UHGV virus genome: UHGV-0275691
Reading direction: 5' to 3' (one strand)
DNA length: 24,961 bases
From: a virus
A program made the translations under genes and the position numbers. This document shows, in pieces, positions 1-24,961 of the stretch. The notes beneath the pieces are model-generated. The model was given only the letters and a program-made list of their open reading frames with translations, did not search any database and was not told where the DNA came from. Positions within the stretch are counted from its first letter, which is position 1. Every line of letters starts with the position of its first letter.

Positions 1-262
1 AGGCGGAGCTGCATATTGAAGTTTTCCTGCCTGCTCAGGTGCCGGATTCAGAGCTGGATTCGTGGATGGAGTCCCGGATTTATCCGGTGATGAGACAGAC
101 CCGCATCATCGTCGCGCCGGTAGTCATAGCCACTGGCCACCATACTGGTGATCAAATCTGACAGTGCCGGGACATCGAGAGCTGGATTCGTGGATGGAGT
201 CCCGGATTTATCCGGTGATGAGCGATGTCCCGGCACTGTCAGATTTGATCACCAGTATGGTG
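1..262. repeat. Rearranged block made only of U-gene sequence: 1-94 is the exact reverse complement of 390-483; 95-177 is an exact direct copy of 307-389; 178-262 is the exact reverse complement of 350-434
   Basis: Base-by-base comparison inside the window; all three segments match with zero mismatches. No V (major tail) gene follows U. Confidence 0.9.
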
Positions 263-658
263 TCACATTTCATAGGTAATGACATAAGTCAGATCGGCTG
301 AACTCCACAGACCCGCATCATCGTCGCGCCGGTAGTCATAGCCACTGGCCACCATACTGGTGATCAAATCTGACAGTGCCGGGACATCGCTCATCACCGG
401 ATAAATCCGGGACTCCATCCACGAATCCAGCTCTGAATCCGGCACCTGAGCAGGCAGGAAAACTTCAATATGCAGCTCCGCCTGCCAGGTATCACTGTCC
501 AGCTCTTCGCCCGTGTATTCAACGCCGGTGAGATAAACGGCAATTGCCGGAAAATCCGCCTCATCAAAAACAGCGGGGCGACCATCAAAAAGCGTCGCCC
601 CGGTGTCATGCTTCTCCAGTGCATCCAGTACGGCTGCACGGAGTTCAGTATGTTTCAT
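263..658 (-). CDS. U: Tail tube terminator protein U (lambda gpU, 131 aa)
   Basis: ORF translation matches recalled lambda U nearly residue for residue; 4-nt overlap with Z as in lambda. Confidence 0.95.
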   Translation of the reverse strand: MKHTELRAAVLDALEKHDTGATLFDGRPAVFDEADFPAIAVYLTGVEYTGEELDSDTWQAELHIEVFLPAQVPDSELDSWMESRIYPVMSDVPALSDLITSMVASGYDYRRDDDAGLWSSADLTYVITYEM

Positions 659-1233
659 CGCTTTATTACCATTCTCAGTTGATGCTGCAGCGCATAGCCC
701 AGCTCTTTCGGAAGGCGTTCACGCCGTATCCGTTCAATATTCTGTTTAAACGCCGTGGTAAGCGGCACCGCCATCGGGATTTTCACCACATCAATGGGGT
801 AACGGTTTTTCCCGGCCACACGCTGCATGACATGCCACCGGCCATTTTTCAGTTGCTGAATAAACGCGCCGGGAATACGACGGTTTCCCACCACAAGCAC
901 GCTGCCGCCACCTTTCAGGGCTGAACGCTGCCCCTTTTTACGACGTCTGCGGCGGGAAAGGACAACCCGCGCGTTACCCAGCCTGATTACGGGCAAATCC
1001 CCCCGGTTAACCCTGATTCTGGCCTGCGGATTTTTGACCGTGGCCCTTTTCAGCCTGGCCCTTTCCTTTACCAGTTTCCGGCGTACCTTTGTCTCACGGG
1101 CAACCTGTGCCACCGACTGCGATATCGCGGATGAAGCAACGCGGTTAATGGCCATTGCGGCGGCACCGGGCACCGCCGTTCTGCTGATACGGCTGAGGTT
1201 TTCAACGGCCTGCTCAAGACCTTTTATGGCCAT
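655..1233 (-). CDS. Z: Minor tail protein Z (192 aa)
   Basis: Translation matches recalled lambda Z; synteny FII-Z-U. Confidence 0.95.
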   Translation of the reverse strand: MAIKGLEQAVENLSRISRTAVPGAAAMAINRVASSAISQSVAQVARETKVRRKLVKERARLKRATVKNPQARIRVNRGDLPVIRLGNARVVLSRRRRRKKGQRSALKGGGSVLVVGNRRIPGAFIQQLKNGRWHVMQRVAGKNRYPIDVVKIPMAVPLTTAFKQNIERIRRERLPKELGYALQHQLRMVIKR

Positions 1234-3469: not shown

Positions 3470-3865
3470 TTACACTGGTGTGTTCAGCAAATCGTTAACG
3501 GCATCAGATGCCGGGTTACCTGCAGCCAGCGGTGCCGGTGCCCCCTGCATCAGACGATCCAGCGCAGTGTCACTGCGCGCCTGTGCACTCTGTGGTGCTG
3601 CGGCCAGAATACGGCGGGCCGTTTCCACGGTCATACCGGGGGTTTCGGCCAGCACGCATGCCTGTTCTTCGCGTCCGTGAGCCTCCTCACAGTTGAGGAT
3701 CCCCATAATGCGACTGTTTTCTGCCGCAACCGCTGCGGTGATCTGCGCGTTCACGTCCGGCTGCGCAGCGCTGGCGTTCTCGCCCTCCGTCGCTTGCACC
3801 ACGCCAGTAACGTCAGCCTGCGAAGCAGTGGCTGAAACAGTTGTTGATTGAGTCTCTTTGGTCAT
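3470..3865 (-). CDS. Nu3: Capsid scaffolding protein Nu3 (131 aa, in-frame C-terminal part of C)
   Basis: Internal ATG at 3863-3865 preceded by AGGAGGG; C-terminal C reading frame matches lambda; lies downstream of the C frameshift so it is intact. Confidence 0.7.
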   Translation of the reverse strand: MTKETQSTTVSATASQADVTGVVQATEGENASAAQPDVNAQITAAVAAENSRIMGILNCEEAHGREEQACVLAETPGMTVETARRILAAAPQSAQARSDTALDRLMQGAPAPLAAGNPASDAVNDLLNTPV

Positions 3866-4768
3866 TCGCCCTCCTGAGAGACGGGATTTACGTGCATCCA
3901 GTGCATCACGCATGACGGTGATCGCATCGGTACTGTTCACAAGTTCATCAGCCAGTCCGGCATCAATGGCCTCCTGACCGCTGTACACTGCAGCCTCGGT
4001 ATCCAGCACAGCCTGCACGGACAGGCCGGTATATGCCGACACCTTCTGTGCAAACATCCGGCGGGTTGCATCCATCCGGGACTGCAGTGTTTCCCGGACA
4101 TCATCCGGTAGATGGCTGTAGGGGTTGCCATCCACCTTATGGCTGCCGCTGTAAATCAGCGTGATTTCCACGCCCTGTTTCTCCAGCGCAGCACCGTAAT
4201 TACTGTGAGCCATCATGACGCCGATGGAGCCTGTCCGGGCGGTCTGCGTGACCAGACGCCGGGAGGCGGCGCTGGCAAGCAGCTGACCTGCACTGCAGTT
4301 CATGTCGTTGGCCAGCGCCCATACCGGTTTTATGTCTCGCACACGGGCGATGATGTCAGCACAGTCAAATGCTCCCGCCACCATCCCGCCCGGTGTGTCC
4401 ATATCCAGCAGAATGCCGTCCACCATCGGATCGCTGGCAGCCTGTTGCAGACGGCGATAATGCCGTTGTAACCGGTCATCCCCGAATACGGCTGCAGCGC
4501 CCGCGTCCGGCTGACCAGCGTGCCGGACACCGGCAGCACGGCGATGCCGTTCATGACCTGATAACTGCGGGCCTGTCGTGGTCCGTCATCATCAACGGAT
4601 AACGCCAGCGCCGCGGGTGCCTCTCCGGCAGTCAGGCTGTCGCCGGACACCGCATCCGTCAGGCGGCTGATCCCAAGCTGGCCTGCAAGCGCACAAAAGA
4701 AAACCCGCGCATAGGCGGGTTCAAGCATCAGCGGCTCATTAAAGGCCATACTGGCAATATGCGGGAGA

Positions 4769-4788
<20 letters not shown>
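3470..4788 (-). pseudogene. C: Prohead protease/scaffold protein C, disrupted by a 1-nt frameshift near 4450
   Basis: N-terminal 150 residues (ORF 4330-4923 from VTAELRNLPH, GTG start at 4786-4788) and C-terminal 318 residues (ORF 3470-4426) both match lambda C but sit in different frames; the window reads ATTATCGCCGTCTGCAA where I recall lambda having ATTATCGCCCGTCTGCAA. Confidence 0.75.
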
Positions 4789-8469
<3,681 letters not shown>

Positions 8470-9015: not shown

Positions 9016-9193
9016 TGTTCATTCCACGGACAAAAACAGAGAAAGGAAACGACAGAGGCCAAAAAGCTCGCTTTCAGCACCTGTCGTTTCCTTTCTTTTC
9101 AGAGGGTATTTTAAATAAAAACATTAAGTTATGACGAAGAAGAACGGAAACGCCTTAAACCGGAAAATTTTCATAAATAGCGAAAACCCGCGA

Positions 9194-13519: not shown

Positions 13520-13947
13520 AAGCTGTGTGACGAAGTAACCACTCTTAACAGCATAACCAATTTTTTACGTACGTAAACCACTAAATGATATTTGCGAGAA
13601 TGCTACCGAGTATTGAAAACACCACTACAAATACATAAGCAAATCTCAACAAATAACCAACAAATAATTTCCAGCGTTATTTTTAGCCAATTTAAATTGA
13701 ACCTTCAAATTATAGAGCACTTATAAATAACAGCCATTAATATAAATTGGCTAATAGATTTATTTTTATTCAGCCAAGAGCCATGAATAGGATTCGATAG
13801 AAAAAAGTTCAGATAAAAATAGAGATCTACTTCACAAATTAAACGAGAAACCAAAACTTACATCTTGAAATAATCACATTGATTAGATGAATATTTATCG
13901 CGCAGTGACATCATTTTTTAATAATAGTTCAAAAAAAAGGGCTCACG

Positions 13948-15030
13948 ATGAAAAAATTAACAGTGGCAATTTCTGCTGTAGCTGCATCAGTACTGATGGC
14001 GATGTCTGCTCAGGCAGCTGAAATTTATAATAAAGACAGTAACAAGCTGGATCTGTACGGGAAAGTTAATGCTAAGCACTACTTCTCCTCTAATGATGCA
14101 GATGATGGTGATACTACTTATGCCCGTCTTGGCTTCAAAGGTGAAACCCAAATCAACGATCAACTGACTGGTTTCGGTCAGTGGGAATATGAATTCAAAG
14201 GCAACCGCGCTGAATCTCAAGGTTCTTCCAAAGACAAAACCCGTCTTGCATTTGCAGGCCTGAAATTTGGTGATTACGGCTCAATCGATTACGGCCGTAA
14301 CTACGGTGTAGCATACGACATCGGTGCGTGGACTGACGTCCTGCCAGAATTCGGTGGTGATACCTGGACCCAAACAGATGTGTTCATGACTGGTCGCACT
14401 ACTGGTGTTGCAACTTATCGTAACAACGACTTCTTTGGTCTGGTCGATGGCCTGAACTTTGCTGCTCAGTATCAGGGTAAAAATGACCGCACTGACGTAA
14501 CTGAAGCCAATGGTGATGGTTTCGGTTTCTCCACTACTTATGAGTATGAAGGATTCGGCGTGGGTGCAACCTATGCTAAATCAGATCGCACTGACGGTCA
14601 GGTCGCCTATGGTAAGAGCAAATTCAATGCCTCCGGCAAAAATGCGGAAGTATGGGCTGCAGGCCTGAAATATGATGCGAACAATATCTATCTGGCTACC
14701 ACATATTCTGAAACTCAGAATATGACCGTTTTTGGTAATAACCATATTGCAAACAAAGCACAAAACTTTGAAGCAGTAGCACAATATCAGTTTGACTTCG
14801 GTCTGCGCCCATCTGTTGCTTACCTTCAGTCAAAAGGTAAAGACCTTGGTGTTCATGGTGACCGAGACTTAGTCAAGTATGTCGATGTCGGTGCTACTTA
14901 CTACTTTAATAAAAACATGTCCACTTTTGTTGATTACAAAATCAACTTAATTGACGATAGTAAGTTTACCAAAACAGCTGGTATTGATACTGATGACATC
15001 GTTGCTGTAGGTCTGGTTTACCAGTTCTAA
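13948..15030 (+). CDS. nmpC: Phage-encoded OmpC/OmpF-family general porin (NmpC/Lc-like), 360 aa
   Basis: Signal peptide ending AQA/AE, conserved porin N-terminus ([17 protein letters not shown]) and C-terminal YQF; located between Q and S on the strand opposite the late genes, as for nmpC in DLP12 and lc in PA-2. Confidence 0.93.
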
Positions 15031-23709: not shown

Positions 23710-24495
23710 ATGAGTACAGCACTCGCAACGCTGGCTGGGAAGCTGGCTGAACGCGTCGGCATGGATTCTGTCGACCCACAGGAACTGATCACCACTCTTC
23801 GCCAGACGGCATTTAAAGGTGATGCCAGCGATGCGCAGTTCATCGCATTGTTGATCGTCGCCAACCAGTACGGCCTTAATCCGTGGACGAAAGAAATTTA
23901 CGCCTTCCCTGACAAGCAGAACGGCATCGTTCCGGTGGTGGGCGTTGATGGCTGGTCCCGTATCATCAATGAAAACCAGCAGTTTGATGGCATGGACTTT
24001 GAGCAGGACAATGAATCATGTACATGCCGGATTTACCGCAAGGACCGTAATCATCCGATCTGCGTTACCGAGTGGATGGATGAATGCCGCCGCGAACCAT
24101 TCAAAACCCGCGAAGGCAGAGAAATCACCGGACCGTGGCAGTCGCATCCCAAACGGATGTTACGGCATAAAGCCATGATTCAGTGTGCCCGTCTGGCCTT
24201 CGGATTTGCTGGTATCTATGACAAGGATGAAGCCGAGCGCATTGTCGAAAATACTGCATACACTGCAGAACGTCAGCCGGAACGCGACATCACTCCGGTT
24301 AACGATGAAACCATGCAGGAGATTAACACTCTGCTGATCGCCCTGGATAAAACATGGGATGACGACTTATTGCCGCTCTGTTCCCAGATATTTCGCCGCG
24401 ACATTCGCGCATCGTCAGAACTGACACAGGCCGAAGCAGTGAAAGCTCTTGGATTCCTGAAACAGAAAGCCACTGAGCAGAAGGTGGCAGCATGA
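23710..24495 (+). CDS. bet: Bet (Red-beta single-strand annealing protein), 261 aa
   Basis: Near-identical to recalled lambda Bet. Confidence 0.96.
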
Positions 24496-24961
24496 CACCG
24501 GACATTATACTGCAGCGTACCGGGATCGACGTAAGAGCTGTCGAACAGGGGGATGATGCATGGCACAAATTACGGCTCGGCGTCATCACCGCTTCAGAAG
24601 TTCACAACGTGATAGCCAAGCCCCGCTCAGGAAAGAAGTGGCCTGACATGAAAATGTCCTACTTCCACACCCTGCTGGCTGAGGTTTGCACCGGTGTGGC
24701 TCCGGAAGTTAATGCTAAGGCGCTGGCATGGGGAAAACAGTACGAGAACGACGCCAGAACTCTGTTTGAATTCACTTCCGGCGTGAATGTTACTGAATCC
24801 CCGATCATCTATCGCGACGAAAGTATGCGCACCGCCTGCTCTCCCGATGGTTTATGCAGTGACGGCAATGGCCTTGAGCTGAAATGCCCGTTTACCTCCC
24901 GGGATTTCATGAAGTTCCGGCTCGGTGGTTTCGAGGCAATAAAATCGGCTTACATGGCCCA
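24492..24961 (+). CDS. exo: Exo (Red-alpha 5'-3' exonuclease), 3'-truncated by the window end
   Basis: ATGA overlap with the bet stop; translation [40 protein letters not shown]... matches lambda Exo. Confidence 0.95.

What the first reader, a model, noticed from the sequence alone, without database searches (positions are those of the whole stretch)
1..483. Tail-gene side ends in an exact scrambled palindrome of U-gene sequence, and V is missing
Positions 1-262 contain no independent sequence. They are three exact segments of the U gene: 1-94 is the reverse complement of 390-483, 95-177 is a direct copy of 307-389, and 178-262 is the reverse complement of 350-434. This puts a perfect 85-bp inverted repeat (178-262 versus 350-434) around the U stop codon and replaces the expected U-V junction. 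Either the prophage is truncated by a fold-back rearrangement, so the tail genes V through J are absent and it cannot make virions, or this is a chimeric-read or assembly artefact at a contig end. Zero mismatches in all copies indicates a very recent event or an artefact.
Basis: seen in the sequence. Interest (0 to 1): 0.7.

Follow-up and report, generated by a model that had tools for sequence, protein, structure and literature searches.

The report
Fold-back junk at a contig end
The first 262 bases of this sequence are three exact, alternately flipped copies of the neighbouring phage tail gene U stuck onto the end of an assembled contig, and are most likely a sequencing or assembly artefact, not evidence that the prophage lost its tail genes.

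Summary
1-94 is the reverse complement of 390-483, 95-177 equals 307-389, and 178-262 is the reverse complement of 350-434, all with 0 mismatches. Native sequence starts at 263, the last base of the U stop codon.

The window looks like a complete short-read contig of a lambda-like prophage, running exo ... cos ... Nu1-A-W-B-C-D-E-FI-FII-Z-U. Its right end falls where three other public contigs also stop.

The same prophage in the complete genome of E. coli 3359 differs by 9 SNPs and 2 IS insertions over 24.7 kb. There U is followed by a 7-nt spacer and V-G-T-H-M-L-K-I-J. None of the three novel junctions occurs in any collection searched.

All three junctions are blunt strand switches with 0 nt of microhomology, which argues against polymerase template switching in vivo or in vitro. 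Two of them share the source breakpoint 389|390, exactly 127 nt from the first native base. 127 is, from memory, the largest default k of SPAdes; simulation gives p of about 1e-4. Every repeat is 94 nt or shorter, so the end is a simple path only for k of 95 or more.

Verdict: terminal fold-back chimera, not a real feature (about 0.8). "V is missing" means only "not on this contig". A genuine rearrangement keeps about 0.1. Reads are needed to settle it.

The parts
1..94 (.). Segment alpha: exact reverse complement of 390-483 (blocks d'c'). Its outer end is the end of the sequence.
94..95 (.). Junction J1: source position 390 (minus sense) joined to 307 (plus sense). Blunt, 0 nt microhomology.
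95..177 (.). Segment beta: exact direct copy of 307-389 (blocks a b). This is the last 83 nt of the 127-mer 263-389.
177..178 (.). Junction J2: source position 389 (plus) joined to 434 (minus). Blunt, 0 nt microhomology. It shares the source breakpoint 389|390 with J1.
178..262 (.). Segment gamma: exact reverse complement of 350-434 (blocks c'b').
262..263 (.). Junction J3: source position 350 (minus) joined to 263 (plus). Blunt, 0 nt microhomology. Collinearity with related prophages ends exactly here, at the last base of the U stop codon.
263..389 (.). The first 127 native bases. Their far end (389|390) is the source breakpoint used by both J1 and J2.
   Evidence: own count; simulation
263..658 (-). 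Intact gene U (tail terminator, 131 aa, PF06141). All three scrambled segments are copied from it.
655..1233 (-). Gene Z. The head-tail module continues normally through FII, FI, E, D, C, B, W, A and Nu1 up to cos at 9193.
24492..24961 (+). Truncated exo gene (470 nt) at the other end of the window. Contigs of three other assemblies stop within 2 nt of the same base, which marks the window as a whole contig.

Best explanation
Positions 1-262 are not part of the genome. They are a terminal fold-back chimera attached to the true end of a short-read contig. The true end is at 263, where the unique path of this lambda-like prophage meets the tail-gene region (V to J). That region was most likely assembled on other contigs because co-resident lambdoid prophages share it (inferred). 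At that branch point or dead end, a zig-zag chimeric molecule or read was kept as the contig's extension. It has the form d'c' | ab | c'b' | native, with each turn a strand switch that jumps 45-87 nt. Every stretch between junctions is shorter than 95 nt, so the chimera shares no long k-mer with the real graph until the 127-mer 263-389. In a k=99 or k=127 de Bruijn graph it therefore forms one unbranched tip 262 nt long, which may be long enough to escape tip clipping (inference, assembler-dependent). Both J1 and J2 break the source at 389|390, exactly 127 nt from the first native base. This points to a k=127 graph, which from memory is the SPAdes default maximum, having shaped the sequence. 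I could not reconstruct the exact step that produces this relation. What is shown: the exact copies, the blunt junctions, the 127-nt relation, the absence of the junctions elsewhere, the intact U-V junction in a near-identical prophage, and the contig-end status. What is inferred: the assembler, the chimeric read or reads, and the location of V to J on other contigs.
For: (1) The exact anatomy is. (2) The window is a whole contig. Its right end lies 1 nt past a C/T polymorphic site in exo (24960), and contigs of three other assemblies (L012, L013, L016) stop within 2 nt of it. (3) The prophage of E. coli 3359 differs from 263-24961 by 9 SNPs plus ISEc23 and IS1 insertions. It continues past the U stop with ATCGTCC and then V, G, T, H, M, L, K, I, J. 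The exact U protein is on record in 355 blocks of assemblies, and all three distinct places shown have V next to U. (4) No record among 5,426 complete E. coli genomes, 50,697 phage records or 72,556 plasmids covers 80% or more of 1-300. 32-mers spanning J3, J2 and J1 have no exact match in whichever of the genome contigs, viral contigs and metagenome contigs collections each was scanned against. (5) Microhomology is 0 nt at all three junctions in both directions, and the scrambled part shows no similarity to the native V side (score 14 against shuffles at 11.5 +/- 1.9). (6) Adjacent source breakpoints that also lie 127/128 nt from the native start arise with p = 1e-4 under random breakpoints, or 6e-4 allowing any SPAdes default k. 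(7) No canonical k-mer is repeated for k of 95 or more, but one is at k = 94, as expected for a simple path of a large-k graph. (8) Fold-back chimeras are documented library artefacts (PMC12870357, PMC10908179, PMC1855051).
Against: There are no reads, coverage data or assembly graph, so the artefact is inferred and not seen. In a k=127 graph every 128-mer starting in 1-262 must occur in a read, and many of them span two junctions. A physical multi-junction molecule, or a few overlapping reads of one, must therefore have existed. As I recall them, standard tip and low-coverage filters should remove a very low-coverage tip when a well-covered V branch is present. I could not derive the 127-nt relation from any specific assembler step. 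The left arm is 94 nt, not 127, so the start of the contig is not at a k=127 vertex. None of about 14 other true contig ends among the fetched loci shows anything similar, so this is not a routine by-product.
Confidence: 0.8

Rival explanations
1. A genuine, very recent in vivo rearrangement. A break at the end of U was followed by serial strand switching or fold-back repair. This left an alternately inverted triplicate of U sequence, deleted or displaced V to J, and truncated the prophage's tail module.
For: The copies are exact and the structure is internally consistent. In a large-k de Bruijn assembly the two-junction k-mers must come from real molecules (own reasoning). A real inverted duplication would also end a contig. 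Arms of 85-94 nt with spacers of 87-295 nt are, from general knowledge, short enough and spaced enough to be tolerated by E. coli.
Against: All three junctions have 0 nt of microhomology. Replication template switching and fold-back priming need some pairing. E. coli lacks Ku/LigD end joining, and its alternative end joining is rare (general knowledge), so three blunt joins within 220 bp are very unlikely in vivo. The breakpoints are tied to a 127-nt unit, which has no biological meaning. The structure sits at the very end of the contig with an arm of only 94 nt. No other genome, phage, plasmid or metagenome contig searched carries any of the junctions. The near-identical prophage in strain 3359 is intact.
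Confidence: 0.1
2. An in vitro polymerase snap-back or strand-displacement product, such as an MDA-type or end-repair fold-back chimera. A displaced 3' end re-primes nearby on the opposite strand several times in succession.
For: In MDA, 85% of chimeras are inverted joins of nearby segments with an intervening deletion, and intramolecular events dominate (PMC1855051). That geometry matches each of the three turns. Chimeric reads of sonicated or enzymatically fragmented libraries also combine a strand with its own reverse complement (PMC10908179).
Against: 93.5% of proximal inverted MDA junctions show 2 nt or more of complementarity, and the library-preparation model needs natural inverted repeats. 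Here 3 of 3 junctions have none. An isolate genome would not normally be MDA-amplified. This model does not explain the 127-nt relation.
Confidence: 0.06
3. The covalently closed hairpin end of a linear plasmid-prophage (N15-like) or of another linear replicon, read through by the sequencer so that the contig end looks palindromic.
For: Contig ends of hairpin-ended replicons do show terminal inverted sequence. Borrelia assemblies are checked for exactly this (PMC6945570).
Against: A hairpin read-through gives a single perfect palindrome whose centre is the telomere. Here there are three offset strand switches with spacers of 45-87 nt and a direct repeat. The ends lie inside a structural gene. 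The same prophage is integrated next to tRNA-Arg with an integrase in strain 3359. cos is internal and intact at 9193.
Confidence: 0.01

Closest known systems
Fold-back (inverted) chimeric reads from library preparation, as described for ONT genomic DNA (PMC12870357) and for sonicated or enzymatically fragmented Illumina libraries (PMC10908179)
   Same: A read continues on the opposite strand of the same locus within about 200 bp. There is often no extra sequence between the two parts. The artefact arises before sequencing and is recurrent enough to mislead structural-variant calls and assemblies.
   Different: Published cases are usually a single turn. The short-read cases are anchored on natural inverted repeats. 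Here there are three consecutive turns, no inverted repeat at any junction, and a breakpoint spacing equal to an assembler k-mer length.
MDA chimeras (Lasken and Stockwell 2007, PMC1855051)
   Same: Inverted joins of nearby segments with an intervening deletion, formed intramolecularly.
   Different: Junction complementarity of 2-21 nt is the rule in MDA and is absent here. There is no indication that the sample was amplified.
Assembler artefacts at dead ends and palindromes of de Bruijn graphs (Rahman and Medvedev 2022, PMC9528984)
   Same: A sequence that is not in the genome can be emitted by SPAdes or MEGAHIT where the graph meets its own reverse strand. The 127-nt unit fits a k=127 graph.
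   Different: Those unsafe unitigs need a (k-1)-nt overlap at the false join. The joins here have no overlap at all, so the paper's mechanism does not by itself produce this sequence.
Lambda head-tail gene order ...Z-U-V-G-T-H... (lambda; E. coli 3359 prophage at the tRNA-Arg site)
   Same: Gene order, orientation and near identity from exo to the U stop codon.
   Different: The window replaces the 7-nt U-V spacer and V with scrambled U sequence and then ends.

Membership tests
Lambda-like prophage, head-tail joining/tail terminator region | Intact U (Phage_tail_U, PF06141) preceded by Z, FII, FI, E and D in lambda order | tested here: met
   ORFs. Pfam families of the identical proteins. RefSeq annotation of the near-identical locus. 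U and Z are 100% identical by tblastn.
Lambda-like prophage, head-tail joining/tail terminator region | V (major tail protein) immediately downstream of U | tested here: not met
   No V, G, T, H, M, L, K, I or J hit in the window. They are present in the relative. Because the sequence ends here, this shows absence from the contig, not from the genome.
Fold-back chimeric artefact at a sequence end | Segments derive from one locus, on alternating strands, within a few hundred bases | tested here: met
   All of 1-262 maps to 307-483 on alternating strands.
Fold-back chimeric artefact at a sequence end | Located at a true contig terminus | tested here: met
   The feature starts at base 1. The other end of the window coincides with contig ends of three other assemblies, so the window is a complete contig.
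Fold-back chimeric artefact at a sequence end | Not reproduced in independent assemblies of the same element | tested here: met
   Searches find no junction anywhere. Relatives have U-V intact.
Fold-back chimeric artefact at a sequence end | Junctions supported by few or no reads, with a coverage drop | not testable with these tools
   No reads or assembly graph are available.
Polymerase template-switch products (MDA chimeras; in vivo quasipalindrome or fold-back priming) | Short complementarity or microhomology at the junction, or a pre-existing imperfect inverted repeat | tested here: not met
   0 nt at J1, J2 and J3 in both directions. The native V side is not similar to the inserted sequence. 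The expectation of 93.5% with 2 nt or more comes from PMC1855051.
Hairpin telomere of a linear prophage/plasmid | A single perfect terminal palindrome centred on the telomere, with a protelomerase system | tested here: not met
   Three offset inverted repeats with spacers of 45, 87 and 295 nt and one direct repeat. The relative is integrated with an integrase at tRNA-Arg. The window's proteins were not scanned for a protelomerase.

The most novel reading that the evidence does not exclude
The zig-zag is real. In this isolate a double-strand break at the end of gene U was repaired by three successive homology-independent strand switches. This created a hairpin-prone, alternately inverted U triplication and severed the tail module from the prophage. 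It would be a snapshot of homology-free fold-back repair in E. coli, which lacks classical end joining.
Probability: 0.08. Interest if true: 0.5.

Novelty: not a real feature. Interest (0 to 1): 0.1.

Why it matters
The main value is as a caution. A contig-terminal scramble like this can be misread as prophage truncation, an inverted-repeat element or a hairpin telomere. It also creates spurious small ORFs: U fragments give tblastn hits at 3-92, 96-176 and 179-265. The practical lesson is to trim 1-262 and look for V to J on other contigs of the same assembly. If the structure were real, it would be an unusual example of homology-independent, multi-step fold-back repair in E. coli.

Tried and rejected
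1. Natural quasi-palindrome. Megablast extended some hits 35 nt past the U stop, which suggested that the start of V resembles the inserted b' segment. A local alignment against the native V side scored within the shuffle range, so I rejected this as chance.

2. Finding the source contig. I looked up the chimeric ORFs of 1-301, and none is on record. The partial exo product is on record, but the only 20-50 kb contig that carries it is a different contig.

3. Deriving the sequence from known SPAdes operations recalled from memory: gap closer with 10 nt or more of overlap, overlap-based scaffold joins, interstrand-bulge handling, and MEGAHIT palindrome folding. Each of these needs sequence overlap at the join or predicts a 127-nt arm. 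Neither fits the blunt joins and the 94-nt arm.

4. Restriction-site or sequence motif at the six breakpoints. None is shared; an MscI site lies 1 nt off one breakpoint.

5. Random blunt ligation of library fragments. Rejected because four pieces from one 220-bp locus of a 5-Mb genome cannot meet by chance, unless a local amplicon was hugely over-represented, and nothing suggests that.

6. Contamination by laboratory lambda DNA. The copies are 100% identical to this strain's own U allele, and the best-matching phage records are only 97.9% identical over these copies.

7. Checking whether fold-back ends are common. About 14 other true contig ends among the fetched loci show none.

Full report
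**Observation.** The claim holds to the base. 1-94 is the reverse complement of 390-483. 95-177 is a direct copy of 307-389. 178-262 is the reverse complement of 350-434. All three have 0 mismatches, and none can be extended by one base. No other repeat of 30 nt or more exists in the 24,961-nt window.

I name the native blocks z = 263-306, a = 307-349, b = 350-389, c = 390-434 and d = 435-483. The window then begins d'c' | ab | c'b' | zabcd..., with three novel junctions:
- J1 at 94/95.
- J2 at 177/178.
- J3 at 262/263.

Each junction is a strand switch combined with a jump of 83, 45 or 87 nt. As single-stranded DNA, 1-483 folds at -206 kcal/mol (z = -28).

**Context.** The window is a lambda-like prophage in its cos-joined order. 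U (263-658, minus strand) is followed by Z, FII, FI, E, D, C, B, W, A and Nu1. Then come cosN at 9193, the lysis genes, a porin moron, Q, the nin region, P, O, cII, cro, cI, N, sieB, cIII, kil, gam, bet and the first 470 nt of exo.

The closest relative is a prophage of E. coli 3359 (NZ_CP103739), integrated next to tRNA-Arg.
- Over 263-24961 it differs by 9 SNPs and by ISEc23 and IS1 insertions that the window lacks.
- There the U stop codon is followed by ATCGTCC and then V, G, T, H, M, L, K, I, J and lom.
- Collinearity with the window ends exactly at 263, the last base of the U stop codon.
- tblastn with those tail proteins finds only U, three U fragments and Z in the window.

**The window is a whole contig.** The 156-aa partial exo product at the right end is on record as a partial gene at the ends of contigs from three other assemblies (L012, L013, L016). 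Those contigs stop within 2 nt of the window's last base. That base lies 1 nt past a C/T site at 24960, which turns CAG into TAG in the exo gene of other lambdoid prophages. So it is a natural branch point for assemblers when two lambdoid prophages share this region.

Position 1 is therefore very probably a contig end as well. By analogy, 263 is where the unique path meets the tail-gene region, which co-resident lambdoid prophages commonly share. That last point is inferred. As indirect support, the exact U protein sits on contigs shorter than 5 kb in 68 of 355 assembly blocks.

**Is the rearrangement seen anywhere else?** No.
- No record among 5,426 complete E. coli genomes, 50,697 phage records or 72,556 plasmids covers 80% or more of 1-300.
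- The J3 32-mer was scanned in all three contig collections (one genome for each of 185,579 species, IMG/VR viral contigs, JGI metagenome contigs). J2 was scanned in the genome and viral contigs, and J1 in the metagenome contigs. None had an exact match.
- Look-ups of the chimeric ORFs found nothing.

**Nature of the junctions.** All three have 0 nt of microhomology in both directions. The inserted sequence has no meaningful similarity to the native V side: score 14 against shuffles at 11.5 +/- 1.9. The apparent 35-nt extension of some BLAST hits is therefore chance.

Polymerase-driven strand switching normally leaves complementarity at the join. In MDA, 93.5% of proximal inverted junctions have 2 nt or more (PMC1855051). 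The short-read library chimeras described in PMC10908179 are anchored on natural inverted repeats. E. coli has no Ku/LigD end joining (general knowledge). Three blunt, local, strand-inverting joins are therefore hard to obtain in vivo, and they are also atypical of polymerase artefacts.

Random blunt ligation of library fragments cannot bring four pieces of one 220-bp locus together.

**A link to an assembler parameter.** J1 and J2 cut the source at the same place, 389|390. That place is exactly 127 nt from the first native base, since 263-389 is 127 nt. In addition, a+b+c (307-434) is 128 nt.

- With random breakpoints, adjacent source cuts occur with p = 0.0086.
- Adjacent cuts that also lie 127/128 nt from the native start occur with p = 1e-4, or 6e-4 if any SPAdes default k is allowed. 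This test is post hoc.
- From memory, 127 is the largest default k of SPAdes, whose graph edges are 128-mers.
- Independently, the window has no repeated canonical k-mer for k of 95 or more, but does at k = 94. The scrambled end is therefore a simple path only in a large-k graph.

Because every inter-junction stretch (94, 83 and 85 nt) is shorter than such a k, the chimera shares no k-mer with the true graph before 263-389. It would form one unbranched 262-nt tip. Only a multi-junction chimera can do this, which may explain why such an odd object survived graph cleaning (inference).

I could not reproduce the 389|390 relation from any specific assembler step that I know. The overlap-based steps all need sequence overlap at the join, and there is none. 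The 94-nt left arm is also not a k=127 vertex. These points remain unexplained.

**Weighing the readings.**
- Artefact, about 0.8 plus about 0.06 for the polymerase-snap-back variant. For it: terminal position, uniqueness, the intact relative, blunt joins and the k-mer arithmetic. Against it: a large-k graph needs reads that carry two junctions, so some physical zig-zag molecule must have existed. As I recall assembler behaviour, low-coverage tips are normally clipped. Other contig ends in the fetched loci show nothing similar.
- Real rearrangement, about 0.1. It is not excluded. It requires three homology-free joins in an organism without end joining, plus a coincidental 127-nt spacing.
- Hairpin telomere, about 0.01. 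It is contradicted by the offset, spaced repeats and by the integrated state of the relative.

**Comparison with what is known.** The object behaves like the fold-back chimeric reads documented for library preparation. [quoted passage not shown] The geometry is like that of MDA inversions. It differs in having three turns, no junction complementarity and a k-mer-length spacing.

It is not a member of any biological family of inverted-repeat elements.

**Verdict.** This is not a real genomic feature. Trim 1-262 and look for V to J elsewhere in the assembly. Interest is low.

Noticed in passing
window 3470-4788 (minus strand; ORFs 3470..4426 and 4330..4923): The head protease/scaffold gene C is split into two overlapping ORFs. 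The identical sequence in E. coli 3359 is annotated by RefSeq as a frameshifted S49 peptidase pseudogene (1,319 nt). The prophage may already be unable to make heads, whatever happened at the tail end.
   Followed up: partly
window 24938-24961: The contig ends 1 nt after a C/T site (24960) that is CAG here and TAG in other prophages, giving them a 156-aa truncated exo. Contigs from three other assemblies stop within 2 nt of the same base. Two of the nine SNPs against strain 3359 lie in the last 24 nt (24938, 24944). The 24944 allele occurs naturally in strain 2016C-3878.
   Followed up: yes
window 13561-13578 and 14654-14663, against L003 23819-26338 and 27442-28208: The window lacks the ISEc23 (IS66-family) and IS1B insertions present in the otherwise near-identical prophage of E. 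coli 3359. The phage-borne porin gene (13948-15030, 360 aa), which is IS1-disrupted in 3359, is intact here.
   Followed up: partly
window 263-389 versus junction source coordinates: The stretch from the first native base to the shared source breakpoint of J1 and J2 is exactly 127 nt, and 307-434 is exactly 128 nt. This matches k and k+1 of a k=127 de Bruijn graph. The step that would generate this relation was not identified.
   Followed up: partly
window 397-410 (and its copies at 74-87 and 202-215): A small perfect palindrome, CCGGATAAATCCGG, lies 7 nt from the shared breakpoint 389|390 inside gene U. It could be a polymerase pause site. Its relevance to the breakpoints is unknown.
   Followed up: no
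PLSDB record CP088745.1 (18,170 bp, E. coli), match at 213-346: A small record labelled as a plasmid carries U-gene sequence about 200 nt from its end with no annotated feature there. It may be another fragmentary prophage contig deposited as a plasmid.
   Followed up: no
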